Shown in pieces: positions 26,133 to 55,565 of a stretch of 64,000 nucleotides of DNA. The first letter of the stretch is position 1. Every line of letters starts with the position of its first letter. Position numbers and translations under genes: made by a program. The DNA is taken from the NCBI GenBank assembly GCA_000004985.1, contig GG738889.1; one strand, written 5' to 3'. Source of the DNA: Naegleria gruberi. Taxonomy: Eukaryota. The notes under the pieces are model-generated. The model worked only from the letters and a program-made list of their open reading frames with translations. It had not been told where the DNA came from and ran no database searches.

Positions 26133-27680
26133 TTAAAGGGCTATACTGCCATTTTCATCCAATGTTTCGAAATATCCGCTAGAGTTTGCTGGTCTTGTAT
26201 ACATATCACATTTAGTTTGTTTGATTACTTTCATGGTTTCTCTGAAAAAGTTCTTGGCTCTTGTCTTGACAATCTTGTGTACTATAAAGTTTGGAAGCGA
26301 CCCTCTAAGATCTGTACCAATTAATTCAATATATTTACAATGCTCTTTTCCATCTACCATGACAGGCATGAAAATCCAAGCACCAATATCCAGGGCCTTA
26401 ATTGCATCCTTCTCCGACAATTTGTAATTTGGTGGTTCACAAGATTTCTTTGCGACAATGTACAACTTGTCAGTAGTGTCATAAACCATAGATTGAGCCA
26501 AAACATAGTACCTATTCTTAACAGGCCACACCAATTTGTAGACCTCATGGGTGAGAACAGTTGCCAATCTTGTCTTGCCAGAAAGTTTGTTCAAAGAAAG
26601 GAGGGAATCTGATGAGGCACTATGATTACTATGTGTACTATGTGGTGAGGCTGGTGGTGAATGGTTGAGTGATGACAGGGACTCACTACTCTTGTATTTT
26701 TTTGGAGGTGATGAAAGTAAATCTCCTCCAGACTTATTCAGATACCCCACAATTTTGATACTATCCAAATTCTTATCAGATGCCAATCTAATTGTAGTAT
26801 TTGTCATAATATTCATCATTTGTTCCACAGTATAAGGGAAAATGACTTGAGATTTGGCAAAGTAAATACCCTTCTTACTTTCTTCCTCTCCCAGAATGTA
26901 CTTGTTCGATGATAAAAATGCAAAACAAGTATCCTTACTATAGATGCAATCCCAGAACTTTTCTTCCAATACATGTTGTTTGATCATTTTGATTTGGTCA
27001 ACTGTAATTTCACAACTCTTCATATCCATCAATGATTCCACAAAACAGCTGTGGGAGAGATTTCTTACAGTACCAATTTGGTTCAAGAATTGTTTGCTCT
27101 TCTTGCAAACAAATTGTTTGAATGTGTCAGATTCCAAAAACATTGGAAAGACGTGTTCTTTCATATTGACTAGAATATAGCTCTCTGCTTTCTTAAGCGC
27201 TTCTTCACATTCTTGAAGATCAGAACTGTCAATATTCACCTGTTGAAGAGTTGAGTTACTGGCATTTGAAGAATTTGTTGGTGTTTTTAGAGTAATCTTG
27301 TCGTTCAGATCCATAAAGCTCTGTTCCATAACTTCCCTTGATCTTTGAGGTAAATTCAACTCGTGAACAGAATTACCACTGAAAAAAGTAATGAAAATTT
27401 GTTGCAACGCATTCCACTTATTGGCAGCAGATCGCTTTCTATAATACTCGTTAACTTGATCTAGAAACATTATACTCTCCTCGCAATGAATAATTTTCAT
27501 GAACTGCAGCAAGGCTTGTTTAGTTTCTGGTTCGTCCAGAAATGCTTCATATGAAAAACAATAATCTCTCAACGAGAGTAATAGTTTCTGTTGTTCAGTT
27601 GTGTATGTAGAGAGAGGAATGTTCGTGGTAGTAGCCGAGAAGGATTTATCAACAGCCAAGGTTGATGTTGTTGCACTCAT
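26133..27680 (-). CDS. RGS-domain protein with a C-terminal START-like domain, about 516 aa.
   Basis: The track ORF starts at a TTG at 27794. The first in-frame ATG is 27680..27678 (MSATTSTLAV). RGS-like block: LSLRDYCFSYEAFLDEPETKQALLQFMKIIHCEESIMFLDQVNEYY...WNALQQIFITFF. The C-terminal region (...YVLAQSMVYDTTDKLYIVAKKSCEPPNYK...GSLPNFIVHKIVKTRAKNFFRETMKVI) resembles a START lipid-binding fold. Confidence 0.6.
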   Translation of the reverse strand: MSATTSTLAVDKSFSATTTNIPLSTYTTEQQKLLLSLRDYCFSYEAFLDEPETKQALLQFMKIIHCEESIMFLDQVNEYYRKRSAANKWNALQQIFITFFSGNSVHELNLPQRSREVMEQSFMDLNDKITLKTPTNSSNASNSTLQQVNIDSSDLQECEEALKKAESYILVNMKEHVFPMFLESDTFKQFVCKKSKQFLNQIGTVRNLSHSCFVESLMDMKSCEITVDQIKMIKQHVLEEKFWDCIYSKDTCFAFLSSNKYILGEEESKKGIYFAKSQVIFPYTVEQMMNIMTNTTIRLASDKNLDSIKIVGYLNKSGGDLLSSPPKKYKSSESLSSLNHSPPASPHSTHSNHSASSDSLLSLNKLSGKTRLATVLTHEVYKLVWPVKNRYYVLAQSMVYDTTDKLYIVAKKSCEPPNYKLSEKDAIKALDIGAWIFMPVMVDGKEHCKYIELIGTDLRGSLPNFIVHKIVKTRAKNFFRETMKVIKQTKCDMYTRPANSSGYFETLDENGSIAL

Positions 27681-29563
27681 GATTAGTTGTTGGTTGAGTA
27701 CTGACGTTTTTTTGATATGATGAAATTGACTTGAAATAGTCCTTACTTTGAGAATCTGCCAGGCGCAAAATCCAACTCTATAGACGTTAGACAAAGTATT
27801 ATTTGGGATTCGTATGGAAAATGTTCTTTCAACACTTTTCTCTTTTCGTTTCCTAATCCTTTAGAATAACAAGCTGTTGGCAAGGAAAGTTCTTTTTGAG
27901 TAGGTGGTCAAACCCGTACGTTGAAAACCTTTCAATTTTTGATTTTTCTCAATCTGTCAAAGAGATACTAGTCTCCTTTGGTTTTCTTATCTTGCAACAA
28001 CTGTTGAGAAAAATTAATGTCGTGTTGATGAAAAATCACCGCCCAGAAATGTTGTCGTTTTTTTGTTGTGAAGATTCCTCTAACACACGCTGTCAGCACC
28101 TATCGGCAACTATCACGAACAAATTAAAATATTATAATTCAAACCTGAGCAGTGCCGGTGTTTAACACCATCCTTGCCAAAGTCCTTAAAGCCTTTTACT
28201 AAAAAGCCTGCATACAAAAAATTTGCTTTCCTTACTCGAACACTCGTTGGGCATCATCAGTGATTTCGCTCCTTTTTTTTTTAAAGTTGGACATGACGAA
28301 GTTGGTGAGCGGGAAAGTGTTTCTGTTTGAGAAAAAGATGCGGTGCATCTATTTTACAAATGTCATCAACACTTGGACATATTGGTATGATGAAGTCAGT
28401 TATTCTTATTAGTGAGTGTTTTTCACACTTTCAACATATTGAGATGATTTCTTGTATTCTGAGAAATGAAACATTTACATGAAATTGTTGGGAGTGGAGA
28501 AAGGTCAGAAGTCAAAATAGGTTTTGAATCATTTGAATCATTCCCTGAGAGAGTCACATTCCTTACCAGCCTTATTTCTTCTTCGACAATAAAATTCCTT
28601 GATCATATCCTTATCAAACTCTGATTCGTAAATATTCACATCTGATAATAATGTCAATTTCTTATCCAAATTGATTTTCCAAGAAATAGACAAGCTGAAA
28701 CTGTATGAAAAAGCAGCAGAAACTACTCCATAAAACTGAAAACCCTGTTTTGGGCAAGAAATAATTAATTCTGATGGAATAATTAAAGATAAAATACAAT
28801 TATCAAAAATTGAGAAATGTAAGGCATTATTGGTTCGTAACGTGTGATATTTGAGATTTCTACTCACACGATTATTGCATGATCCATGAAATAATATTAA
28901 ATCTCCATGCTTCCCAGCACTCGGGTCAAGGTAATAAATTACTCTCAAATAAAACATGATCACATCCAAATTCTAGGAATATTCTGATCACCTCATTGGT
29001 AACAGTAGTCATTGATTGAAATAATAAGCTTGTTCACTAGAAGCCAGTGTCTAATCTCCGAAGAAGAAGAGAAGACTGAGTAGTGATTGCCCTCCATCAT
29101 TGTCCGTTACATTAATACAACTTGAAAAAAAATAGAAATGATTTGTGCTCCTGCATCATCTCTCTCAATGCTGAACTTATCTTCACATTAATGGAATTTA
29201 CTAATATTAGTTAGTTTCCGAATACTTATTAAAAAGTCTAGAAGTGTGTTCTTCCTATTTCATGCATGAAACCTCATAATCCTTCAATTCTATCACTACC
29301 CGATATCAAGAAAGCTTCTGATGAGCAGTGATGGAACATATTCATCATCTGATCAAGTTTTGGCAATTCAACATTTCAAAACAGTAGAGAGAGGTTCAAT
29401 GAAATTACGTTTCCATCCATTCTCCTACCATGTCCAGTAATATCATTGGCCATTACTCGGAAGACATCAAACATTGTAATTTTAAAATGTGAGAGTGTCC
29501 AATGAAACTCTCAGATTGTACAATGAACCACAAAAACAACAAGAAAAAAGGTTTCATCATCAT

Positions 29564-32500
29564 ATGAGTACGAATCCATACCTTCTGCCCACTTCTTCTA
29601 CAAGTATGTTTTCATTAGGAGAGGTAGCATCAAGTAGTCAGAATGTACTTGCAGAACAATCATCATCACACTATTCGATGGGAGCAACTGGGAATGAGTA
29701 TAATCCCTCAAAAGCTGGTACCATGTCTCATACTGGCTCTGAAAGTATTAAAAGTGCTGATACACTATCAACAACAAGTGAGGGAGGAATTAGAGGTCAA
29801 ACCAAATTGCTAATTACCACAACTTTGGTCAGTTTGCAAGATAGCTCACCAAAGAAAGGATGGCGATGCTATGTTTCCTATCTATTGGTTTTTATATACA
29901 TGTTTTGGTGTCAGGTGTTTGTACCTACGTTGGGAAATTATGGTTGGGGAGAGTATGGAACCTATGTATTGATTCATGTTCTCAATTTTCCAAATACCTT
30001 TCTGGTTCATCTCATTCCATTCTATGGATATTTGGCCATCACTATTGCAACTATATTATTTGTATTAACCATGGCAGTTTTGTATATTGTGGGAGTAAGG
30101 TTGGCAACGAAACCAAACAAGCATTTTAACAAGTTCAAGGTTTTGGTTTACTATCTCAGTTTCTTTGTCAAGACTTTCTCTCTCCCTATTGTATATATTT
30201 TGGTTGGTTTATTGGATTGTAATTCTATTGCCTATGATGTAGATGGTGATCCAATCCCTTCTTTGAGAAGATATAGCTCACAATCTTGTACAGACGATTT
30301 GAATATTATCATGATGATTATATCAGTAATTTCCCTTTTGATACTGTTACCTGTTTATTTCTTTTCAGAATCTATAACGGCAAATTCCAATCCACACAAT
30401 AGAACTCCACTGATGGTTGAAAGTTCTTTTCCAACTTCAATTATTGGAGTAATTTCATTGATACAACTAATTATTGGCCAACTGATACCAAGCAATTACA
30501 TGTACATATCTGCTGCCTTACAATTATTACTCAGTGTGATAGCAACCATTATTGCTGGTTATTCACTTCCTTGTTTCAGAATAATTGATAATTCTCTTTA
30601 TTTTGGTATGAATTTGGCTAAAGTAGGAGCAAGTATTGGATCCGTGGTGGCGTCCTCTCTTAATACTGCAAATATATTGAATACATCAGATCCAACACTG
30701 GGCTGGTCTCTCATGACCTTGGGATTGATGATTCTATTCTTTGTTATTGGAGTGGCTATTTTGGAAGTTTTCCAAAGAATTCAACTGAAAAGAGCTAGAA
30801 GTTTTATACTGAACTGGGTTCAACAAGATGAAACAGCTATTAACTCTGATCCTATTTCTCCACTCATTCTCATAGAAAAGAATGCCATGAATATATATGG
30901 CGATGCAGAAGATGCCAAGCTGTTGGGTCTATTGAGACACATGTTCAAGTGTTCCATTCTAGAGGCAAGGGATGCCAAAGGCACTTCATACACTAATAGT
31001 GACTTGTCTTCAGCATTTGTGAAGGGAGCAGCTAGTCACAACTCATTCAATGACCTCAAGTTATTGATTTATTCGTCAATATTATTGGAGACTAAATGGA
31101 ATGAAAGCAATAATACTGTCTTTTCTCTCAACCTACTCAAACGTGCAATGAAACAACATCCAAATGGATTAGAGCAAATTACTATACGGGAGAGAATTAA
31201 GCAAGTTGAGAACTTTTCTCAAACCAACTTTAAGAATTTAACCAATTTTGAATTGAGCTCTCAACTCGACTTGCTAGAAAAGAATCAAAACATTCTTCTA
31301 ACTTTGCACAGAAACTTTTGGAAGGAGTTGGCATCTGAAAAGATCAATTATGATTCTGTTGAAAAAATCAATCGTGCCATTCATTCTCTCACTATTGATT
31401 GTAGGACAACACTTCAAAATTTAATGTACAACCACAAAAATAACAAGACAATTTACAGATTATATGCCAATTTCATTGAAAGTTTTGAGTTTGACAGCGA
31501 CTTGGCCCAACAATACTATAACGAAGCCAATTCTATTGAAGAGGAGGAAATGAAAAGAAAGAGAAGAATGTCAACCTTTAGTAATAATGGAAAGAGAGGT
31601 GGTAATCGTGTTGTTCCTGTCATGAATGAATACAAATTTGGAAATGCAGAGGCAGTTGAAGATCAAGATTTAGATGAGATGGAAAGTGCCTTTGATAATC
31701 CAAAGGTAAAAAAGGAGCAAGTTTTCAAAACAGCCATCTCAAATCAAAGATCCAATAGATTCGTATTCACATCAACTCTATTATATGGCTTGCTATGTTT
31801 CAGTTTTATCACTGCATCGTTAGTACTTAGTGTTTATTACTCTAAAACTTCCAAGAACAATATTCCTTACTTGCAACAGGTTTGCGCAGTTAGTGTAGCT
31901 CCATTCTCAGTATTTAGAAATGTCAGGGCTGGTCAGAACTGGATGAACTTTTACATGCTTTTTGAAAATGTTTGGCCAGCTATTAATCCTGAATCAAATA
32001 CCAAAACAAGATCAAAATCAAGCTATGTCACAAGTCACAAACAAAGAATGTTAGACGATTTGGCTTATTATGATACTCTCGTTTCTACAGCTCAAAGTAA
32101 GATATTCGATAGTGACTCATATATCGACTATTCAGAAAATGTTTATCCATTTGCATACCCAAATGAAGACAAACAGTTTAACTATAATGGAGCTTTAACT
32201 ATTAGAAATATTTCAGTTCAAGAAATTACCAATAATATGATCAAGTACACTAAGAAATTCTACGCAGACGTACCAGACACATATTTATTGGCCTCTGAAG
32301 CTATTAATATCACATATGCCAAGAAGAAACTCAATCTTGACTTGGCAGCAAATTCTACCTATTTTAATCCATTGGCAAACTATAATTTTATGGTTTTGTA
32401 TAGTAATATTGAGAGAGCTAGTAATGCCTATGATGCATTTTGTGGAAAATATCTCGATAGATCAACAAGTACAATTAATGATACCATCAATCTTTTGATC

Positions 32501-34915
32501 TATTATACTGTTACATTGGTTGGTTTCTTCCTATTGTCAAGCTTTGCCTATCTGATATTTATGCTTGTTGAAATGACTTCAATGAAGAGAATAATGAAAC
32601 TCTATGAGAAGCAATTGAGCAAAGATGTTATTGGAAAGATCTATCATACCTTAGATAAGAAGACAACAGAAGTTGCTGATTCTCAATCTAAAGGTATTTC
32701 TCTTAATAGAATCAAACCAAGTGTCATACTTATTGGCTTGATTTTACTTATCATTCTAGTTACAGTAACCTGTTTGGTTTTATTATTTGTTGAAAGTTAT
32801 GAAAATTCAATTACATCATCACAGGTGATGGCAAGTGTAAGATTGACAGTTCAAGCAGCTGCTATTTTGCAAAGATTATCGTTTGCAGTTGGAGAAGTAG
32901 CTACATACTTTGTTGCTAGTGAGACTTCCAATACCAAATCACCTCTAGCCAGTTCTTTCCCTAGAAAGGTAACCTTTGGAGATCCAAGTTTATATGGAAT
33001 AGATATTGCAAGTTTACAAGCATTTTTAGTGGCACGTATAAACACAAGACTTCCTCAATTGAGTAGTATGTGGTCAAAATTAATTTATGGAGATGCAGCA
33101 TCTGGAAGAGAAGCTATTCTTGGTAAATTTGATGATGTTGATCAAGTAATTGTGACTGGAATTACTAATTGCACAGATTATATGGCCAAAAACAATATTA
33201 CATATGGCCTTGAAACTAGTTATCAGTATTGTGTTGGATTTGAAGAATTATTTGGTAATTATTTGACAACTGTTGCTCAGCTCGTTACAGATTCAAAGAA
33301 ACAGTATGCACTTCAACAAGCTGCCCTTAGCACTACAACTCTTCTTCCAACGGATGATTTACAATTGAGACATAACAATGCTATGAGAATGGCTTTATCC
33401 TTAACAAGCAAATTTGTGAAATTTATTCAAGAATTTGTGGATGCAACCTCTAGTGCTTCCTACATTATTGCAATCATTAGTACAATTATCAGCTACTTGC
33501 TATGTACAGTCTTCTTCTTTTTCCTTCAGAGTACTTATCAATCTTATGATGGTCAATTACACACTTTGAGAATAATGGCTCACTACATTCCAGTTGATGT
33601 TCTTGATAGAAATGAACAATTGAAGAACTTTATTCTATACAATACTACCAAGACAGAAAAGAAGAAGAAATCTCTGCTCTCTAAGGAAGGCTTTGTTGGA
33701 GGTTCCTCTCTTGAAGATTTGAAGAATATTTTCAATTCCAACATTGAGGGAACCACAATTTGTAATAGCAAGTTTGAAATTGAATTTTTCAATGCAGCTG
33801 CCCTCAAAATGTTTGGTATGCAATCAATTGATGTGTTGGGAGTTTCTATGGGAAATTTGATTGAGCCAACACAAAAAGATGAGCTCATTAATTGTATGGA
33901 TCATTTAATGAAGAAAAAGACAGGTGAAAATAACCTAAAGAAGGATGAAATTCAAACTAATGATCAATGCGAAGTTTTAGAATTAGACTGCATCAGAAGA
34001 AATCAAACAAAATTCCCATGCAAAATAACTTTAATTGCTGTTAAGGTTAGTGATGGAATAGGTCAAAAGCCAATCCTAATCGTCAGTCTTAAAGATTTAA
34101 CATCTGAAAAGAAACAAAATGCACTATTGAGTGAAGAGAAACAAAAATCAGACAATTTACTGAAAAACATATTACCAATGAGTGTTGCTTCGAGATTAAA
34201 GAGTGGACACACTTTCATTGCTGAAAAGTTGGATGATATCACTTGTTTCTTCTCAGATATGGTTGGATTTACTGCAATCAGTAGTGGACTTCAAGCAACT
34301 GACCTTGTGATGATGTTAAACTCTATTGTTAATGGATTTGATTTACTAACAGAGAAGTATGATTTGGAGAAGATCAAAACTATTGGAGATGCATACTTTT
34401 GTGTAGGAGGACTTCCAGGTGCAGCAACAAGTGATCATCCAGAACGAGTTCTCAAATTTGCTATTGAAACATTTGGTGTCATTAACGATTTCAATGCCAA
34501 TAATGCTGAAAGGAAATCGGTGACTGATAATCAAGAAGAATATCAACCAACTGAAGAACAGTCATCGCCTATCAAGGCAAAGATCAATATTCGAGTTGGA
34601 ATTAACACAGGAGCAGTTGTGGCAGGTGTTATTGGAATGAAAAAGTTTGCCTACGACTTGTGGGGTGATACAATCAATACTGCATCTCGTATGGAATCAA
34701 CATCAAAGAATGGAAGAATTCAAATTTCACGATCAACCTATGAAAGAGTTTTCGATTTGGGTTATGAATTTGAGGAAAGAGAAGTAGATGTGAAAGGAAA
34801 AGGAATTGTCAAGACTTATCTATTGAATGATAAGCATCATAGATATCTCAAAAACAATCCACTAATGTATTCAGCACAGAAGAGTGCTTCTTTGTTATTC
34901 ACTTCCCAACAATAA
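29564..34915 (+). CDS. Polytopic sensor-type class III nucleotidyl (probably adenylyl) cyclase, about 1783 aa. Order: N-terminal ~8-TM domain, cytoplasmic helical region, two TM helices bracketing a ~260-aa N-glycosylation-rich extracellular domain, more TM helices, PAS domain, coiled coil, C-terminal cyclase catalytic domain.
   Basis: One uninterrupted ORF. The track start at 29489 is GTG; the first in-frame ATG is 29564 (MSTNPY). Hydrophobic helices are at aa ~120-440 and again FVFTSTLLYGLLCFSFITASLVLSVYY, LLIYYTVTLVGFFLLSSFAYLIFMLV, VILIGLILLIILVTVTCLVLLFV and YIIAIISTIISYLLCTVFFFFL. PAS-like segment: GTTICNSKFEIEFFNAAALKMFGMQSIDVLGVSMGNLIEP. Catalytic core: FSDMVGFT...LEKIKTIGDAYFCVGGLP...YDLWGDTINTASRME. 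It has both metal-binding Asp residues, plus Lys (EKIKTIGD) and Asp (YDLWG) at the purine-specifying positions. Confidence 0.8.
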   Translation: MSTNPYLLPTSSTSMFSLGEVASSSQNVLAEQSSSHYSMGATGNEYNPSKAGTMSHTGSESIKSADTLSTTSEGGIRGQTKLLITTTLVSLQDSSPKKGWRCYVSYLLVFIYMFWCQVFVPTLGNYGWGEYGTYVLIHVLNFPNTFLVHLIPFYGYLAITIATILFVLTMAVLYIVGVRLATKPNKHFNKFKVLVYYLSFFVKTFSLPIVYILVGLLDCNSIAYDVDGDPIPSLRRYSSQSCTDDLNIIMMIISVISLLILLPVYFFSESITANSNPHNRTPLMVESSFPTSIIGVISLIQLIIGQLIPSNYMYISAALQLLLSVIATIIAGYSLPCFRIIDNSLYFGMNLAKVGASIGSVVASSLNTANILNTSDPTLGWSLMTLGLMILFFVIGVAILEVFQRIQLKRARSFILNWVQQDETAINSDPISPLILIEKNAMNIYGDAEDAKLLGLLRHMFKCSILEARDAKGTSYTNSDLSSAFVKGAASHNSFNDLKLLIYSSILLETKWNESNNTVFSLNLLKRAMKQHPNGLEQITIRERIKQVENFSQTNFKNLTNFELSSQLDLLEKNQNILLTLHRNFWKELASEKINYDSVEKINRAIHSLTIDCRTTLQNLMYNHKNNKTIYRLYANFIESFEFDSDLAQQYYNEANSIEEEEMKRKRRMSTFSNNGKRGGNRVVPVMNEYKFGNAEAVEDQDLDEMESAFDNPKVKKEQVFKTAISNQRSNRFVFTSTLLYGLLCFSFITASLVLSVYYSKTSKNNIPYLQQVCAVSVAPFSVFRNVRAGQNWMNFYMLFENVWPAINPESNTKTRSKSSYVTSHKQRMLDDLAYYDTLVSTAQSKIFDSDSYIDYSENVYPFAYPNEDKQFNYNGALTIRNISVQEITNNMIKYTKKFYADVPDTYLLASEAINITYAKKKLNLDLAANSTYFNPLANYNFMVLYSNIERASNAYDAFCGKYLDRSTSTINDTINLLIYYTVTLVGFFLLSSFAYLIFMLVEMTSMKRIMKLYEKQLSKDVIGKIYHTLDKKTTEVADSQSKGISLNRIKPSVILIGLILLIILVTVTCLVLLFVESYENSITSSQVMASVRLTVQAAAILQRLSFAVGEVATYFVASETSNTKSPLASSFPRKVTFGDPSLYGIDIASLQAFLVARINTRLPQLSSMWSKLIYGDAASGREAILGKFDDVDQVIVTGITNCTDYMAKNNITYGLETSYQYCVGFEELFGNYLTTVAQLVTDSKKQYALQQAALSTTTLLPTDDLQLRHNNAMRMALSLTSKFVKFIQEFVDATSSASYIIAIISTIISYLLCTVFFFFLQSTYQSYDGQLHTLRIMAHYIPVDVLDRNEQLKNFILYNTTKTEKKKKSLLSKEGFVGGSSLEDLKNIFNSNIEGTTICNSKFEIEFFNAAALKMFGMQSIDVLGVSMGNLIEPTQKDELINCMDHLMKKKTGENNLKKDEIQTNDQCEVLELDCIRRNQTKFPCKITLIAVKVSDGIGQKPILIVSLKDLTSEKKQNALLSEEKQKSDNLLKNILPMSVASRLKSGHTFIAEKLDDITCFFSDMVGFTAISSGLQATDLVMMLNSIVNGFDLLTEKYDLEKIKTIGDAYFCVGGLPGAATSDHPERVLKFAIETFGVINDFNANNAERKSVTDNQEEYQPTEEQSSPIKAKINIRVGINTGAVVAGVIGMKKFAYDLWGDTINTASRMESTSKNGRIQISRSTYERVFDLGYEFEEREVDVKGKGIVKTYLLNDKHHRYLKNNPLMYSAQKSASLLFTSQQ

Positions 34916-38855: not shown

Positions 38856-40898
38856 ATGCAACGAGTTGGCAGAGCTAGTTGGGTTAGATCCGCTCATACA
38901 ACCTTTTTCATTATATTCTTGTTGGTGTTGTTTTTAATTCAAGTCAACTGCCACACATCAAGTTTGATAGATTTAAAGGAAAGTTATCGGCCCGTGTATG
39001 CTAATCAATCCCAATGTATGGTTAAACCATTTGATGATCCAATTAGATTTGAATGGTCCTTGGAATGCCAAAACGTCACTTGTAATAATTTAAAAATTGG
39101 ATTATCTAAAATGTCACCAACTCTTTGCTTGGCAATACAATTATTCTCGGATGATGATTGGATTTTCGAGCATTTAAACAATACTGATAATTACAAGATG
39201 AATGTTGGTAAACATGTGATGTCTGACAATGTCAGATATCGATTATTTTGTTATTATCAGAATATGGGAGCTTTAGACTTTGAAGTTCCACCACGAGCAT
39301 TTTGTTTGACGAGGAATGGAAGTGAATATTCAACGAATTGCACAGATGGATATGCTAATGAGAAATTGGACGAATTGATTGGAGAAAGTTATTGGAATTT
39401 CACTAGACGAAAGCAGTTTCATCAATATTCATGGAAAATGACCAACTTGACAGTGGAAATACCCATCAAATTGGATCAATCAAATCAAACAGGATTACAA
39501 ATGCATGTCATGTTAATTGACTTGTATTCTTATCCTCAAAAATTTGAATTGAGATTTATTGGAAACCCTTATTATATAATACCATTAATTACAAATTATT
39601 CAATGAGTGAATTTTCGAATAGAACATGGGATCCTCAGTGTGATGATTTAACTTATAATTCACGACCTCAATACTATATTTGGAAATTAATCGCCATCTC
39701 AATTGGATTGGTTGACTTTAGTACGGTTTTAATTCTATTGATATGTAGAAGAAAGCACCGTATTATACAGAGTCGATTTATTATTCCCTACTTTACCTCA
39801 TGCATGTATATATTGCAAGGGATAACAAATATTTTTTTGAATGTTTTCTATTATGATCCTGAATGGGATGCCTTAATTGAGGAATTAGTTTTGATTGTGG
39901 TCATGTCACTACACTTGTTGCAGGGGATGAGGTATTATATTTCTAGATTGATGTATTCGAGATTTTATTCGAAACGAGATGGAATATTGATGAAGATTCT
40001 CCTGTCAAAAGTTTACTTTCTAATAGCCATTATTTCTGTTTTGATTTTAGAAGCAATTGTCGTTGCCGTAATAATGACTAATCTTCCATATGTTGATATG
40101 GTTGATTTTTATACTTATTTTTCAATTATTTGTGGAATTAGCTATTTAATCTTACTTGGAATTGGAATGACTGTTCACATTATTGTAAACTTTAAATTTG
40201 CAAGAAAGTTAAAGAGTGCCAAGCAGATTTTCAGGTGGTTCTTTTTACATGATGACAGCTTTGGATATAATGGTGAATTTCTGGTGTTTGTTGTGATTTA
40301 TATTTTGGCAGGATTGTTTTTTTTACTTTCTTCCCTTTCTGGAGGTTATCTCACTTCTACTTTATATGTGAGTACGAGACCCATTTCTAAACTGTATTTG
40401 AACAATGGTTTTGGATATGCCCTGTATGGATGTGGTAAAATTCTCTTTACTGTTGGATATAGTTTACAACTTTGGTTTCTTGTAATTATGACATTTTTCA
40501 AGAAGGAGAAGGAGAAAACTGACATTCAACAACTCAAGGAAGAGATGGATATATTCTTTTCCAAGTCATTTAATGATGGATCTGTCTGTATTGAAATTAT
40601 GAAACGATTTCTAGTGTTGGAATTCAAATTGGAATTATTGGAAATTTACATTTTCTTGTCCCAACATCCAAAATCAACATTGATGGATTTAATTCAGAAA
40701 TATCCTCAGAATTACTTTGCAATTGTTCGATATTTCAAGAAATCAAATCTGGATAGCAATTATCAAGAATGTTATCTCGAGTCAACTGAACTTTTAGTGG
40801 AAGCTTTTATAAGATTAAAGTTGACAGTCATTTACGAGAAGGAATATTTGGAAAGGATGAAAGAGGAAATTCAGTTTGTGCTGGAATGTATAAAATAG
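38856..40898 (+). CDS. Receptor-like 7TM protein with a signal peptide, a ~290-aa Cys-containing N-glycosylated ectodomain and a divergent RGS-like cytoplasmic tail, 680 aa.
   Basis: The track start at 38832 is TTG; the ATG is at 38856 (MQRVGRASWVRSAHTTFFIIFLLVLFLIQVNC). NxS/T sites are NQS, NVT, NNL, NYS and NRT. Seven hydrophobic helices lie between YIWKLIAISIGLVDFSTVLILLI and LYGCGKILFTVGYSLQLWFLVIM. The tail FFSKSFNDGSVCIEIMKRFLVLEFKLELLEIYIFLSQH resembles an RGS core. The architecture parallels the gene at 53433. Confidence 0.55.
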   Translation: MQRVGRASWVRSAHTTFFIIFLLVLFLIQVNCHTSSLIDLKESYRPVYANQSQCMVKPFDDPIRFEWSLECQNVTCNNLKIGLSKMSPTLCLAIQLFSDDDWIFEHLNNTDNYKMNVGKHVMSDNVRYRLFCYYQNMGALDFEVPPRAFCLTRNGSEYSTNCTDGYANEKLDELIGESYWNFTRRKQFHQYSWKMTNLTVEIPIKLDQSNQTGLQMHVMLIDLYSYPQKFELRFIGNPYYIIPLITNYSMSEFSNRTWDPQCDDLTYNSRPQYYIWKLIAISIGLVDFSTVLILLICRRKHRIIQSRFIIPYFTSCMYILQGITNIFLNVFYYDPEWDALIEELVLIVVMSLHLLQGMRYYISRLMYSRFYSKRDGILMKILLSKVYFLIAIISVLILEAIVVAVIMTNLPYVDMVDFYTYFSIICGISYLILLGIGMTVHIIVNFKFARKLKSAKQIFRWFFLHDDSFGYNGEFLVFVVIYILAGLFFLLSSLSGGYLTSTLYVSTRPISKLYLNNGFGYALYGCGKILFTVGYSLQLWFLVIMTFFKKEKEKTDIQQLKEEMDIFFSKSFNDGSVCIEIMKRFLVLEFKLELLEIYIFLSQHPKSTLMDLIQKYPQNYFAIVRYFKKSNLDSNYQECYLESTELLVEAFIRLKLTVIYEKEYLERMKEEIQFVLECIK

Positions 40899-47738: not shown

Positions 47739-47950
47739 ATGTCTTTCCATATTTGGCTTCATCTCTAAAATAAACACTTTCTATTTTTGCAACCAGTTTA
47801 AACTATTTTTCAAAAAAAATACCTCAACATACTAGTAAGTCGTATCAGTTATCAATTATATTACATCATTTCAATTCATTTACAAGACATATCAATTCAA
47901 ATTTTTATTTCACGTTTTTATAAGAAACTCTTGTCAATTTCCTTGTCATC

Positions 47951-48050
47951 TTTGATGGTGTGAAATCTTTTACAATATTAATTCACACGGTGTGAATCTT
48001 TCATAGCATTGAGTTTCACTCAGTGTGAAATGGTTCAAGATGAAAGATTT
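47951..48050. promoter_or_regulatory. Cluster of GTGTGAA-containing palindromes.
   Basis: ggTGTGAAatc, aaTTCACACgGTGTGAAtc (a perfect 7-bp inverted repeat with a 1-nt spacer) and ttTCACTCAGTGTGAAAtgg, all within 100 nt, about 310-410 nt upstream of the P450 ATG. Confidence 0.5.
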
Positions 48051-48117
48051 CCAACTTGTAAGAATTATGAATAGTTCAATAAAATTTCAATTTATCAAAA
48101 ATTAATAATCATTCTGC

Positions 48118-48300: not shown

Positions 48301-48360
48301 ACAAGCGTCAATAAAAATGAGCGGGGCATTGAAAGTTTAAAAAAAAATTCCCAACTTGAA

Positions 48361-50013
48361 ATGCAAGAAACACAATCACTCGCCGATTACATCAAATCTT
48401 TTGGTACATTTCAATTGATTTTCCTCTCTTTCATTTCTTTGATCATTCTCTACTTGATAATTTATACATGCCGATTTGTGCACTTGTATTTAAAGTATAG
48501 GCACATTCCTGGCTTTGTTTCCTTTCTACCACCCTTCTTGGGATCACTCGTGGCCGGAGAAATGTTTGTTGGTTATGAGTATTCATGTATTTTGAAGGCT
48601 TTTACGAGTAATCCTGATAGTACAATTGTAAAGATTCAAAAAGGATTGGATCTTTATTTTGCTGTGGCTAAGGATCAAGAAATAATCAAGGAATTACTCA
48701 TTAGAAAGTATAAAACTATGGCCAAGAATGAAAAGTTGTTGGAACCATTGGGATTATTTGGACATAATATGTTAACTGCCGATTCAACCAATCCTATTTG
48801 GAAGAAACATAGAGTATTGGCTAATCCAATCTTTTCAAATCATGCTCACTTGAAAAATGTATTCAGAGTCACAATGGAAGAACTTTCCAACATGATTAAA
48901 TATTGGAAAGATAATTATGATTCAGATGCTGAAGGAAATATTAGAAATGTCAATACTACACAAGAACTCAAGTCAATTACACTCACTGTTATTAACAGAG
49001 TTGCTTTTGGTTATGATATTGAGATTTTTAATAAGAGTACAAAACACAGAGATGAAATTCATCAATCGACAACTGACTTGTTGAGTGGAATCATGTACAA
49101 ATTTGTTTTCCCTACATGGTTCTTTGAATATTTACCGTTTGGAATTTTTGGCAAATTCAAGAAGGCAAAGAATAATTTCCGTAAGATTGCCATGGATATG
49201 ATTAGTAAAAAGACAGCTGAAATTCAAAAGAATAATGAAATTATGGAAGATGAAGATTTATTGAGCTTGTTAATGAAGAGTAGTGCTTCTCAAAACTTAT
49301 CAGATGAGGAAAAATTGAGTGATGATGAATTGGTCAGTGCTATGTTTATTATATTCTTTGCTGGATTTGAGACAAGTTCAACCTCTTTGAATTTCATGTT
49401 GAGGCTGTTGGCCATTCATCCAGATGTTCAGGAGAAATTAATTGAAGAAATTGATGCAACAGTAGAGTCAGCCGAATCTATGAAATTTGAAGATCTTACC
49501 GAAAGACTTCCTCTATTGAACTCATTCATTAAGGAGTCATTCAGGGTCAAACCAGCAGTAGGTGCCGTTTCCAGAACTGTTGCCAAGAAGGGAGGAGAAA
49601 CTATTGGAGGAATGCACTTTAATGAGGGAGACCAAATTGTTTTCAACATTATGGTTCATCACAAACTCTCCCACAATAATGCTATGGATACTTTCAAATT
49701 TGACAGATTTTATCAACCATCAGATAAGCAAGACGATTCTTCATCAGAAAGCTCAGATAAGGGAACAATGGGAAATTTAACACTCGAGTTTGCAAAGGAT
49801 GATTTGGCCTCCTTCTCACTTGGTCCAAGAGATTGTCTCGGAAGAAGAATGGCCTTGATAGAAGTTAAACAGATTCTCGTCTATTTATTGAAAAAGTACA
49901 GAATTACAGTGCCAGAACATTTGAAGGAGCAACAGGCTAAAATTAAGGAAACTTACATCATGACAAGATGTACCTTTGAACCTTTTATTCTTAATTTTGA
50001 AAAGAGATGTTAA
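48361..50013 (+). CDS. Cytochrome P450, intronless, 550 aa, with an N-terminal membrane anchor.
   Basis: ATG at 48361. Marks: TM anchor LIFLSFISLIILYLIIYTC, I-helix FFAGFETSS, K-helix ESFR, heme loop FSLGPRDCLGRRMALIEVK. It ends in TAA. Confidence 0.85.
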   Translation: MQETQSLADYIKSFGTFQLIFLSFISLIILYLIIYTCRFVHLYLKYRHIPGFVSFLPPFLGSLVAGEMFVGYEYSCILKAFTSNPDSTIVKIQKGLDLYFAVAKDQEIIKELLIRKYKTMAKNEKLLEPLGLFGHNMLTADSTNPIWKKHRVLANPIFSNHAHLKNVFRVTMEELSNMIKYWKDNYDSDAEGNIRNVNTTQELKSITLTVINRVAFGYDIEIFNKSTKHRDEIHQSTTDLLSGIMYKFVFPTWFFEYLPFGIFGKFKKAKNNFRKIAMDMISKKTAEIQKNNEIMEDEDLLSLLMKSSASQNLSDEEKLSDDELVSAMFIIFFAGFETSSTSLNFMLRLLAIHPDVQEKLIEEIDATVESAESMKFEDLTERLPLLNSFIKESFRVKPAVGAVSRTVAKKGGETIGGMHFNEGDQIVFNIMVHHKLSHNNAMDTFKFDRFYQPSDKQDDSSSESSDKGTMGNLTLEFAKDDLASFSLGPRDCLGRRMALIEVKQILVYLLKKYRITVPEHLKEQQAKIKETYIMTRCTFEPFILNFEKRC

Positions 50014-50098
50014 AATTTTCTAATTTATTTACATGATTTGATTATTATTAAATCGTCGTTAGGAGAATAGGATTTCAAAATTGGATATTTTGTTAACT

Positions 50099-50881
50099 TT
50101 AAACATGTTGCTCTTGATTAAGATTTGGATAATGAACTTGATTAATGGAATAAGCAACTGGATTTTGAGCAACATATTGTTGAGGAGTGACAATAGTTGG
50201 AACGGAGGCATCATCTTCTTCCTCTCTCAATTGTTGATGAGCTTCACTCTTTTGTAATGAAATAGAATAACCCTTCTTCTTCAAAATGAGAACTACAATT
50301 CCAGCTCCACAAGCCAAACACAATGAAACACTAGCAACAATACCACCAATAACACCAAGAATTAAACCAATTGGTAATCCTTGTTCTCCAGCTCTATTTT
50401 GAGTTTTGGTCATTTCATTACCATCTTGAATATTGGAATCATCTTGATCCATATCTGGTGATGCTGATGAAGAATCTTGTGGTCTTGGTGGTCTTTGTCC
50501 AGAACGATCTGGTCTTGGTGGACGAGGACCTGGACCTGGTTGTCTTCTGGAATGATCTGGTCTAGGTGGTCTTTGTCCAGATGGTAATGGACGTGGAGGT
50601 CTTTTTCCAGAAGGCATTGGTCTTGGATTTCCTGATTGTTGTGGACCTGGTGGAGGATGTGGTCTTTCACCAGAATGATCAGGTCTTGGTGGTCTTTGTC
50701 CAGAGTGATCTGGTCTTGGAGGTCTTTGTCCTGAACGATCAGGTCTTGGACCAGGTGGTGGATTTGGAGGTCTTTGAGAAATATTGTTATCTTGAGCGAG
50801 TGTGGACATTGTCAAGGCAATGAACATGATTAACATGACAGCGAGGACTGCCAATGATTTCTTTGAGTGTTGGTGATGCAT
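50099..50881 (-). CDS. Type-I membrane protein with a signal peptide, about 9 tandem Pro-rich decapeptide repeats (consensus SGQRPPRPDH), one TM helix and a short cytoplasmic tail. 260 aa.
   Basis: ATG at 50881. Signal peptide-like LAVLAVMLIMFIALTMSTLA. Repeats include RPDRSGQRPPRPDHSGQRPPRPDHSGERPHPPPGP...SGKRPPRPLPSGQRPPRPDHS...RPDRSGQRPPRP. TM helix: LPIGLILGVIGGIVASVSLCLACGAGIVVLIL. The 30-nt nucleotide periodicity is visible (ggtcttggtggtctttgtccag...). Confidence 0.65.
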   Translation of the reverse strand: MHHQHSKKSLAVLAVMLIMFIALTMSTLAQDNNISQRPPNPPPGPRPDRSGQRPPRPDHSGQRPPRPDHSGERPHPPPGPQQSGNPRPMPSGKRPPRPLPSGQRPPRPDHSRRQPGPGPRPPRPDRSGQRPPRPQDSSSASPDMDQDDSNIQDGNEMTKTQNRAGEQGLPIGLILGVIGGIVASVSLCLACGAGIVVLILKKKGYSISLQKSEAHQQLREEEDDASVPTIVTPQQYVAQNPVAYSINQVHYPNLNQEQHV

Positions 50882-52538: not shown

Positions 52539-53432
52539 TATTTTATTGGATGATTTCAGAGCCTTTTCAATTTCCTCTCTCACCTTGTCAATTAGAATTG
52601 GCTTTTAATTAACTGAATCGAAACTAGCTTCTTTTAACATATCAGCTGTTTCCCAATTATTTGCAGTGTACTTTTCTTATTGTTGGTTTTTTCATACTCT
52701 CTAATATTTTTCACACTTTGCTTACCACACATTACTAAGATCGTAGAACCAACCAATAATGCCATGTAATGGATTTCTTGCTTCATGTGAAATGTTGGCA
52801 ATTAGGTGAGTCTTTTCATTGCTAATGTACTTATCCTGTTTCTCCTTTGAATACGTATTACACAGGAATAAACATAGGGAGAACAAAAGCTAGGAGAGGT
52901 CACTTCAATGATCTTTGAATAAATTGAACCGCTCATATATAAGGAAGAGGGTTATAGAATTAGACGGAGGGATCAGATGACAGGAAGTCCATTTGTAGAA
53001 TTCGTTGAAGTGATGGTACTAAATGAGTTGATTTTCTTGGCCTATTTCCACAAACGAAGAACGAGAATTTGGCGTTAATTCTGGAGAGCTTGTAATACTA
53101 CTAGTATTAGATGAAAGACAGTTCATAGATTGAGATCTACTCAAAGGGCTGAATGGTATTGAGCTATATGGATATCCACTTGTCTGACTAGAAGAAGATG
53201 TATTATATAGCAGTGATGCTAATGTGAGGGAGTGATGAAATATTTCTCTTAGAAGATAAGGATTCTGTCATACTTAACGACCTTACTATTAATTTTCCAT
53301 TCGCTGTTAAGTGGTTATCAATGTTCCTGAGTAGGAGTTAGGTGCACATTTGTAAAGTCATTTTTGGAAAGGAAAATATCTGTATTGACAGGTGGCACTT
53401 GGAATGAGAAACGTGATCACAAGAACAAAAAA

Positions 53433-55565
53433 ATGGTAGCAACGCCACCTCTCCTCTTCTCTTTCTTTGTGTTTTGTTGGTGTGGATTCTTGCTTGTTGA
53501 CACATGTTCTACACACTCTTCCATAACTTCATCAACATTGAATGTGTTTATTCAGAAAAGCTCCACAACAGAAAGTTTGCAAGTATTTGGATCCAACTCT
53601 TCGATCATTCTCATCACATTCAATCAGACAGCTAGTCAAGATGAGTCAAGTTGGAACGTCATTAATCAAATTGGACCTACAACAGATGTACATGTCTATT
53701 CGTCACTCTTAGAGGAAGACACTCCAGAAAAGGATGAATTCAAAAGGAGTGTTGAACATGCCATGCTTATGAATGGTTTGAATATTAGAAAACTTTCGTA
53801 TGTCACTTTGATGCTTACGGATTGTATGATTGGAAATCCATTTGTGGATAACAAACAGATCAAGTTTCTGATAACGACAGATTTCGATTTACCTATCATG
53901 GTGAGGAAAATCAGAGAGAATTTCGCATTGGGGAGGTTATTAGAAATGAGTGATTTTAGAATTCAAGTTTTGGCTCCATACGAAATCCAATATTCAACGA
54001 CAAGCAACATTTCAGAATCAACTGAAAGTTTATATCAAGATAAGATTGCAGAATGTTTGAATGCAATGAAGAATTGTAAAAATAATGGAACCCTCTCAAC
54101 ATGCTATTGGAAACATGATTATTGTTGGATCAGACAACCTTCATCTCTCTTCCAAGTTCAACAATTCAATCTTCTCAATTCCTACACTAATATGAAACTA
54201 GTTTACAATAGCTCTTCCATTTCCAACTCTATTTCCAAATACTCTCTGGAATTCTCGCACGAAACTCAAAACCTCACCTTACCATTCATCATTTACAATG
54301 AAATTCTTCCATCTTTCTTCTTTTCCTGCAAATCTCCGATCTGTCTCTATGAACCAATGCTTCCAAGTGAACCATTTCACTATGCAGTTGCGTTCTGTTG
54401 CTTGATATTTTATATTGGACTAATTTTCATGAGGAATAAGAATACTATTAAGGTAAGATTGTTGTTGCCGTGGATATGTCCATTGATTGTTACAATAAGA
54501 ATTCTTAGTAGTGGAGAATACTTGTATTCAACCTGTCCAATTATTTATTCAATGATTTCTATAGAAACTGTTTCTATTGTGGTGACGATTTATTGTGTGA
54601 CAGTTATTAGATTCTTTTATTTGAGAAATTTATATGACATCATTTCAAAATCAAAGAGAATTACACTTTTAAAGAGATTGGCATCTGTCAGATTTGGAAT
54701 TTTTGTGACAGTTTTGGCATCTGTGATTGTATTTGCTCTGTTGATGGTGTTTCTTCCAATGTTTATCAAAATTTATTTGAATCAGACTGCAATCAGTGTT
54801 TCCAGAAATGTAATTATTGGAGTAATTGTTGCCATTGCAATTATTTTGGCTATTATTTATTCTATATTTGATATTATTCTCAGAAGAAAGGATATTCGAA
54901 TGAAAGGAATCATGTATTATCTATTTTTCGATGATCCTTATCTGATTCGAATAGATTTAATATCCTTAATTATCATTTTGCTGTTGCTTATTCCATTTGT
55001 GATTCCAACAAGAATTCAAGTATTATCTGGATTGTTTAGAATGTTGATTGCATTGTCTGCGTTCATGGCAATGGGTGGAACAACAATGGTATTGGAATGT
55101 TTCAAAATGATTCGTTATTCGAAAAATGACGAAAGTGAAAAACTGGAGGATATAATTTCTGATAAGAATTTATTTAAAATCCTTAAAGAATATGCACAGA
55201 AAGAGTTTAGTTTGGAGAATATTCTATTATATGAAAATTTACAGCAATTTTCCCACAAGAAATTTACACGTACTGACCTAGAAGAAATAGAAGAATTATT
55301 TGTAAGAAACTATTCGAAATACGAAGTCAACCTCCCTTCCCTAACCAAACGTAAATTCTACGAATACATGAAAGAAACTGAAAAATCCGAAACTCTTGAT
55401 GTAAAACTTGTCAAGGACCTAATCTTCCAAGAAATCCTCAACAATATCATGGACACATTCTCTCGTCTCCAAGAAACCGAAGAATATCTGAAATGGGAGC
55501 GCATCAAACAGTTCCAACTTCGTAAAATGTCTATCAATCCTTCAAATTCCAATAGAAATCAATAA
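53433..55565 (+). CDS. 7TM receptor with a C-terminal RGS domain (7TM-RGS). It has a signal peptide, a ~300-aa N-glycosylated Cys-containing ectodomain, 7 TM helices and a clear RGS box. 710 aa.
   Basis: The track start at 53364 is TTG; the ATG is at 53433 (MVATPPLLFSFFVFCWCGFLLVDTCS). Sequons: NSS, NQT, NIS, NGT, NSS and NLT. TM helices run from AVAFCCLIFYIGLIFM to ALSAFMAMGGTTMVL. RGS box: LFKILKEYAQKEFSLENILLYENLQQF...EIEELFVRNYSKYEVNLPS...LIFQEILNNIMDTFSRL. Confidence 0.7.
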   Translation: MVATPPLLFSFFVFCWCGFLLVDTCSTHSSITSSTLNVFIQKSSTTESLQVFGSNSSIILITFNQTASQDESSWNVINQIGPTTDVHVYSSLLEEDTPEKDEFKRSVEHAMLMNGLNIRKLSYVTLMLTDCMIGNPFVDNKQIKFLITTDFDLPIMVRKIRENFALGRLLEMSDFRIQVLAPYEIQYSTTSNISESTESLYQDKIAECLNAMKNCKNNGTLSTCYWKHDYCWIRQPSSLFQVQQFNLLNSYTNMKLVYNSSSISNSISKYSLEFSHETQNLTLPFIIYNEILPSFFFSCKSPICLYEPMLPSEPFHYAVAFCCLIFYIGLIFMRNKNTIKVRLLLPWICPLIVTIRILSSGEYLYSTCPIIYSMISIETVSIVVTIYCVTVIRFFYLRNLYDIISKSKRITLLKRLASVRFGIFVTVLASVIVFALLMVFLPMFIKIYLNQTAISVSRNVIIGVIVAIAIILAIIYSIFDIILRRKDIRMKGIMYYLFFDDPYLIRIDLISLIIILLLLIPFVIPTRIQVLSGLFRMLIALSAFMAMGGTTMVLECFKMIRYSKNDESEKLEDIISDKNLFKILKEYAQKEFSLENILLYENLQQFSHKKFTRTDLEEIEELFVRNYSKYEVNLPSLTKRKFYEYMKETEKSETLDVKLVKDLIFQEILNNIMDTFSRLQETEEYLKWERIKQFQLRKMSINPSNSNRNQ

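What the first reader, a model, noticed from the sequence alone, without database searches (positions are those of the whole stretch)
26133..55565. Clustering of G-protein/cAMP signalling genes: RGS-START protein, sensor cyclase and two 7TM-RGS receptors within 30 kb
Three RGS-domain genes and the cyclase sit near one chromosome end: RGS+START at 26133-27680, a 7TM receptor with an RGS-like tail at 38856-40898, and a clear 7TM-RGS at 53433-55565. Both 7TM proteins share an unusual build: a cleavable signal peptide, a ~300-aa Cys-containing N-glycosylated ectodomain, then the 7TM core and a cytoplasmic RGS tail. They look like diverged paralogs. 7TM-RGS proteins of the AtRGS1/GprK type normally lack large ectodomains. 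A receptor that carries its own GAP, with a ligand-binding ectodomain, would be a self-contained G-alpha off-switch sensor.
Basis: partly seen in the sequence, partly recalled or inferred. Interest (0 to 1): 0.6.

Follow-up and report, generated by a model that had tools for sequence, protein, structure and literature searches.

The report
Naegleria receptor-RGS genes near a telomere
This subtelomeric stretch of the Naegleria gruberi genome carries four G-protein/cyclic-nucleotide signalling genes, including two distantly related receptor-plus-RGS proteins, but these gene families are so large in this amoeba, and the receptor-with-built-in-off-switch design so well documented there, that the finding is largely ordinary.

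Summary
The window is Naegleria gruberi, ending in a TTTGGG telomere. The genes described are real. There is an RGS+START protein and a multi-TM PAS/class III cyclase. There are also two single-exon proteins built as signal peptide, ~250-290-aa ectodomain, 7TM core and ~130-150-aa tail.

Protein B (53433-55565) is a genuine 7TM-RGS. Its Pfam RGS match is marginal, but its N. lovaniensis orthologue passes and the G-alpha-contact residues are kept.

The two ectodomains show no detectable similarity.

The clustering is not remarkable. N. gruberi has 229 RGS proteins, so about 17 such 29-kb windows with two RGS genes are expected by chance. Unrelated genes lie between the signalling genes, and the neighbourhood is not conserved in N. 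lovaniensis.

Ectodomain-7TM-RGS receptors were already described and assayed in N. fowleri (Bosch 2022). The only mildly new item is the small, unannotated A family.

The parts
26133..27680 (-). RGS-START protein, cytosolic with no TM segment. The RGS domain is at about 27111-27551. The START match is at about 26217-26564.
   Evidence: Pfam RGS E 2.3e-12 (47.8 bits) and START E 4.6e-6 (26.6 bits, above the 22-bit cutoff). The RGS+START architecture is noted in divergent taxa (PMC3971589).
29489..34915 (+). Large multi-TM class III nucleotide cyclase. It has a TmcB-type TPR, a PAS domain (~33746-34102) and a C-terminal catalytic domain (~34220-34828).
   Evidence: Pfam Guanylate_cyc E 7.5e-52, PAS_9 E 3.1e-14, TPR_TmcB E 4.1e-13.
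38856..40898 (+). Protein A (P0001, 680 aa). Signal-like segment: aa 1-32. Beta-rich ectodomain: aa ~33-275 (38952-39680). GPCR-fold 7TM core: aa 278-548 (39687-40499). Helical tail: aa 553-680 (40512-40895), probably a degenerate RGS-derived domain.
53433..55565 (+). Protein B (P0004, NAEGRDRAFT_58957, 710 aa). Signal-like segment: aa 1-25. Ectodomain: aa 26-312 (53508-54368). 7TM: aa 315-548 (54375-55076). RGS domain: about 55143-55500.
   Evidence: Pfam RGS E 1.7e-4, 22.4 bits. The N. lovaniensis orthologue P0005 scores RGS 34.2 bits. For the B-tail profile against PDB, 23 of 24 hits are RGS proteins, best E 7.7e-4. Alignment to RGS4 keeps SxEN, EVNL and DxxxR. Hydropathy.
63566..63998 (+). 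Telomeric repeat (TTTGGG)x72 at the scaffold end. It places the whole region within ~38 kb of a chromosome end.
   Evidence: Tandem Repeats Finder. Sequence read.

Best explanation
This is an ordinary subtelomeric stretch of the Naegleria gruberi genome. It happens to contain four members of this organism's massively expanded G-protein and cyclic-nucleotide signalling families. It is not a functional gene cluster.

Protein B is a typical Naegleria receptor-GAP (7TM-RGS). An extracellular domain and a GPCR-like 7TM core present a cytoplasmic RGS domain to G-alpha-GTP at the membrane. By analogy with AtRGS1 and the assayed N. fowleri 7TM-RGS proteins, that domain accelerates GTP hydrolysis on (partly self-activating) G-alpha subunits. 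Ligand binding is presumed to modulate this activity.

Protein A belongs to a small, so far unannotated family: at least 5 loci in N. gruberi plus environmental relatives. It descends from the same 7TM-RGS stock. It has a different, beta-sandwich-like ectodomain, and its RGS-derived tail has diverged beyond HMM recognition. The tail has lost at least one canonical G-alpha-contact residue (the RGS4 Asn88 equivalent is Leu in every member), so its GAP activity is doubtful.

Shown here: the domain content, the GPCR fold of A, the A-B homology over 7TM plus tail, the lack of ectodomain similarity, and the lack of statistical or syntenic support for clustering. Inferred: membrane topology, GAP function of B, ligand regulation, and loss or change of function in A's tail.
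For: - Organism and gene models.
- Domains: and for the B orthologue's RGS at 34.2 bits.
- B keeps the RGS4 contact motifs EFSLEN, YEVNL and DTFSR. For its tail profile against PDB, 23 of 24 hits are RGS proteins.
- A-B homology: hhalign probability 94.7%, E 5.7e-8, 370 collinear columns from TM1 to the end of the RGS.
- Split analysis: TM E 3.4e-4, tail E 0.021, ectodomain E 0.81, reversed controls E 0.3-0.6.
- Shuffles: 0/60 and 0/40 reach the observed scores.
- Bridging: adding 8 A-family tails to the B-tail profile raises the RGS hits, with best E going from 7.7e-4 to 1.8e-4 and hits below 0.01 going from 3 to 18. Adding column-shuffled A tails collapses the RGS4 score from 18.2 to 2.1+-1.3 bits, while real A tails give 20.8.
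- Family size and taxonomic spread of A.
- Background: 229 RGS proteins in N. gruberi (PMC3971589); 44 G-alpha (PMC8584482); 41 Mb and 15,727 genes (PMC4408790); 28 7TM-RGS with complex ectodomains and demonstrated GAP activity in N. fowleri (PMC9283941).
- Chance calculation.
- No other signalling genes in the window, and unrelated genes in between.
- No synteny in N. lovaniensis.
Against: - A's tail on its own gives no significant RGS match anywhere. Pfam finds none at E<=10. The PDB profile finds none. hhalign against a 4-sequence RGS profile gives probability 0.7%. An A-only HMM scores 5.6 bits against RGS4.
- The tail-only A-B comparison is weak (E 0.021). The RGS-derived reading therefore rests on collinearity with the 7TM homology and on the bridging test.
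- The fold of A's tail could not be tested separately.
- Counting A as a fourth signalling gene gives four in 29 kb, expected only ~0.1-0.2 times per genome under a uniform model. A mild local enrichment is therefore not excluded, for example from subtelomeric accumulation of expanding families.
- The genome itself was not available for a direct count.
Confidence: 0.75

Rival explanations
1. Functional signalling cluster. The RGS-START protein, the cyclase and the two receptor-RGS genes are co-located because they act in one G-alpha/cAMP pathway and are co-regulated.
For: Four signalling genes lie in 29.4 kb. With A included, this is expected only ~0.1-0.2 times per genome under a uniform Poisson model. 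The N. lovaniensis B orthologue also has a cyclase gene ~8 kb downstream.
Against: - The genes are on different strands and are separated by at least 9 unrelated genes, including a P450, PfkB, an AAA ATPase, a methyltransferase and orphans.
- Counting only Pfam-detectable RGS genes, like for like with the published total of 229, two in 29 kb is expected ~17 times per genome. Three signalling genes are expected ~3 times.
- None of B's N. gruberi neighbours is found within +-10 kb of its N. lovaniensis orthologue. The cyclase there has a different architecture.
- Eukaryotic signalling pathways are not generally organised as clusters (established knowledge).
Confidence: 0.08
2. Protein A is not RGS-related at all. 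It is a GPCR-like 7TM receptor, possibly a conventional GEF-type receptor, with an unrelated helical cytoplasmic tail. The similarity to B is confined to a shared 7TM ancestry.
For: No RGS HMM or profile hit for any A-family tail. Tail-only hhalign against B gives only E 0.021, probability 2.3%. The RGS4 Asn88 equivalent is an invariant Leu. The A-only HMM scores 5.6 bits on RGS4.
Against: - The full-length alignment runs collinearly through the tail.
- The tail score exceeds 60 of 60 shuffles, z ~3.6.
- MAFFT independently aligns the A motifs IDIMKRFLxxEFRxELL and EAFxRLKQT with B's RGS motifs.
- Real A tails improve the combined profile's RGS hits, whereas shuffled A tails destroy them.
- The tail length of ~125 aa and its all-helical prediction fit an RGS domain.
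Confidence: 0.2
3. A and B are recent tandem or segmental duplicates that share the same ligand-binding ectodomain, as paralogous sensors for related ligands.
For: Same overall architecture, similar lengths (680 and 710 aa), same strand, 12.5 kb apart.
Against: BLASTP between them is not significant, E 0.21. Ectodomain profiles show no similarity, E 0.81. A's closest relatives, at 63% and 50% identity, lie on other scaffolds. B has an orthologue in N. lovaniensis while the A family has none there. The split is therefore ancient.
Confidence: 0.03

Closest known systems
Naegleria fowleri 7TM RGS proteins (Nf 7TM RGS1-4 and 24 others; Bosch et al. 2022, PMC9283941)
   Same: Same genus and same architecture: an extracellular N-terminal domain, a 7TM core and a C-terminal RGS. 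The RGS domains were shown to be selective GAPs for Nf G-alpha subunits, some of them self-activating. Protein B fits this class.
   Different: The described Nf proteins carry EGF-like, lectin and GPS modules. The ectodomains of A and B have no Pfam or PDB-sequence match. No N. fowleri orthologue of A or B was found. A's tail is not HMM-detectable as RGS.
Arabidopsis AtRGS1 (plant 7TM-RGS)
   Same: A 7TM core fused to a C-terminal RGS box that acts as a membrane-anchored GAP on a self-activating G-alpha. This is the conceptual model of a receptor-GAP (and established knowledge).
   Different: AtRGS1 has only a short N-terminus, whereas A and B have ectodomains of ~250-290 aa behind a signal peptide. 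No sequence relationship to AtRGS1 was tested here.
RGS-homology (RH) domains that have lost GAP function (axin, GRK2, RhoGEF rgRGS)
   Same: Like these, A's tail appears to be a diverged RGS-type helical domain lacking canonical catalytic-contact residues. Axin appears among the hits of the combined A+B tail profile.
   Different: There is no direct homology evidence to any RH subfamily, and no fold confirmation for A's tail.
Class C, class B and adhesion GPCR transmembrane domains
   Different: Sequence identity is 5-13%. There is no Venus-flytrap, hormone-binding or GAIN/GPS domain (no Pfam hits). The tail is RGS-derived rather than a G-protein- or arrestin-coupling tail.

Membership tests
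7TM-RGS receptor-GAPs (AtRGS1 / Nf 7TM RGS type): protein B | Seven transmembrane helices N-terminal to the RGS domain | tested here: met
   Seven hydrophobic segments lie between aa 315 and 548. They align collinearly with the 7TM core of A, which has a confirmed GPCR fold. B's own structure model was unusable, pLDDT 39.
7TM-RGS receptor-GAPs: protein B | C-terminal domain recognised as RGS (PF00615) | tested here: met
   B itself scores 22.4 bits, E 1.7e-4, just under the 23.9-bit gathering score. The orthologue P0005 scores 34.2 bits. For the B-tail profile against PDB, 23 of 24 hits are RGS proteins.
7TM-RGS receptor-GAPs: protein B | Conserved G-alpha-contact residues (RGS4 Ser85/Glu87/Asn88, Asn128, Asp163/Arg167) | tested here: met
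   In the alignment with RGS4 (the RGS4 sequence was verified against 1AGR), EFSLEN matches EYSEEN, YEVNL matches KEVNL and DTFSR matches DSYRR.
7TM-RGS receptor-GAPs: proteins A and B | GAP activity on a cognate G-alpha, and regulation by an extracellular cue | not testable with these tools
   This needs recombinant RGS domains and Naegleria G-alpha in GTPase or SPR assays, as in PMC9283941.
7TM-RGS receptor-GAPs: protein A | Seven-TM GPCR-like core | tested here: met
7TM-RGS receptor-GAPs: protein A | C-terminal domain recognised as RGS (PF00615) | tested here: not met
   No Pfam RGS hit for A or any of 8 family tails, even at E<=10. No RGS hit among PDB sequences. hhalign against a small RGS profile gives probability 0.7%. 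Only indirect support exists: collinear homology with B's RGS and the bridging test.
7TM-RGS receptor-GAPs: protein A | Conserved G-alpha-contact residues | tested here: inconclusive
   In alignment A7 the Glu87 equivalent is kept (E/D). The Asn88 equivalent is Leu in all members. The Arg167 equivalent is invariant. An Asn128-like 'SNLDS' is present in A and P0002 but not in the other members (by inspection). The alignment is unreliable in that loop.
Adhesion-GPCR-like 7TM-RGS (GPS/GAIN-containing Nf 7TM RGS) | GPS/GAIN, EGF or lectin modules in the ectodomain | tested here: not met
   No Pfam domain in either ectodomain. No PDB-sequence match.
Functional or co-regulated gene cluster | Co-location beyond chance, contiguity, and conservation of the arrangement in related genomes | tested here: not met
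   The Poisson expectation is ~17 windows per genome with at least 2 RGS genes, and ~3 with at least 3 signalling genes. At least 9 unrelated genes are interspersed. No shared neighbours around the N. lovaniensis orthologue. A direct genome-wide count was not possible.
RGS domain proteins with START (26133-27680) | PF00615 and PF01852 above gathering scores | tested here: met
   47.8 bits against a cutoff of 23.9, and 26.6 bits against a cutoff of 22.
Class III adenylyl/guanylyl cyclase (29489-34915) | PF00211 catalytic domain | tested here: met
   176 bits, E 7.5e-52, with the PAS domain upstream. Substrate specificity (ATP or GTP) and dimerisation were not tested.

The most novel reading that the evidence does not exclude
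The A family is an unrecognised branch of the Naegleria 7TM-RGS receptors. It comprises P0001, P0002, P0003, NAEGRDRAFT_74079, the split model NAEGRDRAFT_68335/68334, and environmental relatives. In this branch the RGS domain has lost its catalytic-contact asparagine and been converted into a non-GAP G-alpha-binding or scaffolding module, analogous to axin or GRK RH domains. It is coupled to a novel beta-sandwich ectodomain. This would be a receptor that captures or reports G-alpha-GTP rather than switching it off. It would also mean that published RGS and 7TM-RGS counts for Naegleria miss cryptic members.
Probability: 0.3. Interest if true: 0.4.

Novelty: new member of a known kind. Interest (0 to 1): 0.22.

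Why it matters
Receptor-GAPs (7TM-RGS) are the proposed ancestral way of controlling self-activating G-alpha proteins outside animals and fungi. Naegleria has the largest known repertoire of them. The finding adds little to that picture. B is one more member, and the apparent clustering is what a genome with 229 RGS genes produces by chance.

The small gain is the A family. It shows that HMM-based inventories can miss diverged RGS tails. It also gives a natural test case for what happens to a receptor-GAP when the GAP residues decay. Neither point opens a long-standing question.

Tried and rejected
- BLASTP of A against B was not significant, E 0.21. The shallow profile comparison A1 vs A2 reached only probability 21%. 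The signal appeared only with the 11-sequence A-family profile.
- Pfam on the A-family full lengths and tails found no RGS.
- The A-tail profile against PDB sequences returned only spurious hits.
- A tail against a 4-sequence RGS profile gave probability 0.7%.
- The structure prediction of B failed, pLDDT 39 with a 2-sequence alignment. Its Foldseek search is meaningless, although RGS17, axin and GRK2 appear among the non-significant hits. The ectodomains therefore could not be compared by structure.
- Fold searches with model A are saturated by GPCR hits. Neither the tail nor the ectodomain fold could be identified.
- The afdb50 library was unavailable.
- A second homologue search for B with the alignment found nothing new.
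- Look-ups of the N. gruberi scaffolds carrying the A paralogues failed because they are not in the contig index. The neighbourhoods of the other A-family genes could not be examined.
- The ectodomains gave no match against PDB sequences.
- I considered whether the 590-aa gene without Pfam domains next to the N. lovaniensis cyclase was an A homologue. It is not: it has no TM pattern and gives no tblastn hit.
Full report
**Source and setting.** The two 7TM ORFs are 100% identical to NCBI protein models of Naegleria gruberi, on a 348,446-bp scaffold. The window ends in 72 copies of TTTGGG at 63566-63998. The region of interest therefore lies within ~38 kb of a chromosome end. GC is ~34% and genes are mostly single long ORFs. 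Two assembly gaps interrupt the window.

**Checking the observation: domains.**
- ORF 26133-27794(-) has RGS (E 2.3e-12) plus START (E 4.6e-6).
- ORF 29489-34915(+) has TmcB-type TPR, PAS and a class III cyclase domain (E 7.5e-52).
- ORF 53364-55565(+), protein B, has a sub-threshold RGS match: 22.4 bits against a gathering score of 23.9, E 1.7e-4.
- ORF 38832-40898(+), protein A, has no Pfam match at all.

**Checking the observation: architecture.** Seven hydrophobic segments and a tail of ~130-150 aa follow. The remaining ORFs of the window contain no further RGS, G-alpha or cyclase genes. The genes lying between the four signalling genes are unrelated. They include an AAA ATPase, a P450, a PfkB kinase, a proline-rich membrane protein and several orphans.

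**Protein B.**
- It has a single detectable orthologue, in N. lovaniensis: P0005, 43% identity, which carries a clear PF00615 match of 34.2 bits.
- For a profile of the two tails searched against PDB sequences, 23 of 24 hits are RGS proteins; the best is RGS10 at E 7.7e-4.
- I aligned B's tail to human RGS4, whose sequence I verified against 1AGR/1EZT. B keeps the canonical G-alpha-contact motifs: EFSLEN for EYSEEN, YEVNL for KEVNL, and DTFSR for DSYRR.

B is therefore a bona fide 7TM-RGS and probably GAP-competent.

**Protein A: family and fold.** A has two closer N. gruberi paralogues on other scaffolds, at 63% and 50% identity. An exhaustive HMMER scan of 1.84 billion representatives found only nine relatives. 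These are two more N. gruberi loci (NAEGRDRAFT_74079 and the split pair NAEGRDRAFT_68335/68334) and short environmental contigs. None comes from N. fowleri or N. lovaniensis.

An AF2 model built on the 11-sequence alignment reached pLDDT 71, with 75-90 across the 7TM core and the tail. The core is a GPCR fold:
- Foldseek probability is ~1 to PTH1R, mGlu and PAC1.

The ectodomain is predicted as a beta-sandwich of about ten strands at moderate confidence. The tail is predicted as seven helices.

**Is A's tail RGS-like?** Direct tests fail:
- Pfam finds no RGS in any of eight family tails, even at E<=10.
- The tail profile against PDB sequences finds no RGS.
- hhalign against a small RGS profile gives probability 0.7%.

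Indirect tests are positive:
- The deeper A-family profile aligns to the B family with probability 94.7% and E 5.7e-8. The alignment covers 370 collinear columns, from TM1 to the end of B's RGS domain.
- Split by region, the TM cores give E 3.4e-4, the tails give E 0.021 over 90 collinear columns, and the ectodomains give nothing (E 0.81). Reversed-sequence controls give E 0.3-0.6.
- Column shuffles never reach the observed scores. The tail scores 19.1 against 11.6+-2.1 (0/60). The TM core scores 34.2 against 13.6+-2.2 (0/60) and against 19.5+-2.9 for helix-sized block shuffles (0/40).
- MAFFT independently aligns the A-family motifs IDIMKRFLxxEFRxELLEIY and EAFxRLKQT with B's FKILKEYAQKEFSLENILLY and DTFSRLQET. 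These are the alpha3-alpha4 and alpha7-alpha8 signatures of RGS domains.

**Bridging test.** Adding the eight A tails to the B-tail profile improves the RGS hits in PDB. The best E goes from 7.7e-4 to 1.8e-4, and hits below 0.01 rise from 3 to 18. In a controlled version, the RGS4 score is 18.2 bits with B alone, 20.8 with B plus real A tails, and 2.1+-1.3 with B plus column-shuffled A tails.

I conclude that A's tail is most likely an RGS-derived domain that has diverged beyond HMM recognition. The equivalent of RGS4 Asn88 is Leu in every family member. The Asn128 loop is not conserved across the family. GAP activity is therefore doubtful. This last step is inference.

**Are A and B diverged paralogues with a shared build?** Yes for the 7TM core plus tail, but the split is old. 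BLASTP is not significant, B has an orthologue in another species, and A's nearest relatives are elsewhere in the genome. No for the ectodomains, which show no sequence similarity. A structural comparison was impossible because B's model failed at pLDDT 39.

**Is the clustering meaningful?**
- N. gruberi has 229 Pfam-detectable RGS proteins (PMC3971589), 44 G-alpha subunits (PMC8584482), and 15,727 genes in 41 Mb (PMC4408790).
- N. fowleri has 107 RGS proteins and 80 cyclases (PMC9283941).
- For the 29.4-kb interval, the expected RGS count is 0.164.
- Two RGS genes are expected in ~17 such windows genome-wide. About 28% of all RGS genes should have another within +-29 kb.
- Three signalling genes (RGS plus cyclase) are expected ~3 times.
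- Four are expected ~0.1-0.2 times. That last count includes A, which the published totals do not.

The ~100 figure for N. gruberi cyclases used in that calculation is from my memory of Fritz-Laylin 2010. It is bracketed by the N. fowleri figure.

The genes are on both strands and interspersed with unrelated genes. Around the N. lovaniensis orthologue of B, none of the N. gruberi neighbours recurs. I find no support for a functional cluster. At most, expanding lineage-specific families tend to accumulate near chromosome ends.

**Comparison with what is known.** The receptor that carries its own GAP is the AtRGS1 paradigm. The version with a large ectodomain is already described in this genus. 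Bosch et al. 2022 report 28 7TM-RGS proteins in N. fowleri. Several have EGF-like, lectin and GPS-containing extracellular regions. The same paper shows that isolated RGS domains of three of them are selective GAPs for Nf G-alpha subunits, including self-activating ones. De Mendoza et al. 2014 already list RGS+START and TM-RGS architectures across eukaryotes.

**Verdict.** B is a new member of a known kind. The A family is a modestly interesting, unannotated, probably RGS-degenerate offshoot. Overall interest is low.

Noticed in passing
window 63566-63998 (repeat-like sequence from ~63520): 72 perfect copies of TTTGGG at the end of the scaffold. This appears to be the telomeric repeat of N. 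gruberi. A 2.8-kb assembly gap at 60090-62870 lies just inside it.
   Followed up: partly
window 44000-48000: An AT-rich stretch (GC 0.274) with an assembly gap at ~45.7-46.3 kb. It holds a long ORF, 45522-47738(+), with no Pfam match on its readable part. Together with the AAA_22 ORF at 41395-42906, it may be a lineage-specific or mobile-element-like insertion.
   Followed up: no
window 50099-50881 (-): The ORF encodes a signal peptide, a proline-rich tandem repeat (SGQRPPRPD-like units), one TM segment and a short tail. It has no Pfam match.
   Followed up: no
window 18148-19359 (-) and 48361-50013 (+): Two cytochrome P450 genes in the same window. The first ORF covers only part of the P450 profile, so it probably has an intron or is truncated.
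   Followed up: no
L001 20516-22406 (N. lovaniensis PYSW02000003.1): The N. lovaniensis orthologue of protein B also has a Guanylate_cyc gene about 8 kb downstream. That gene has a different architecture, with a long coiled or low-complexity C-terminus. It gives no tblastn match to the window's cyclase within the locus. This is probably coincidence, given 80-100 cyclase genes per genome.
   Followed up: partly
window 22907-24520 (-) and L001 5425-7053: A DUF4116-repeat protein (9 repeats, E 3.8e-100) lies upstream of the RGS-START gene. A 24%-identical DUF4116 paralogue lies near the B orthologue in N. lovaniensis. DUF4116 seems to be another expanded family in Naegleria.
   Followed up: no
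proteins P0010 and P0011 (NAEGRDRAFT_68335 and NAEGRDRAFT_68334, another N. gruberi scaffold): Adjacent gene models correspond to the ectodomain and the tail of an A-family member, with the 7TM core missing. This is either a mis-split gene model or a decaying pseudogene of the family.
   Followed up: no
proteins A and B, loop between TM5 and TM6 (A aa ~461-472; B aa ~497-506): A shared motif, WFFLHDDSFGYNGEF in A and YLFFDDPYLIRIDL in B, is the best-conserved stretch between the two families. It may mark a cytoplasmic coupling site specific to this Naegleria 7TM-RGS lineage.
   Followed up: no
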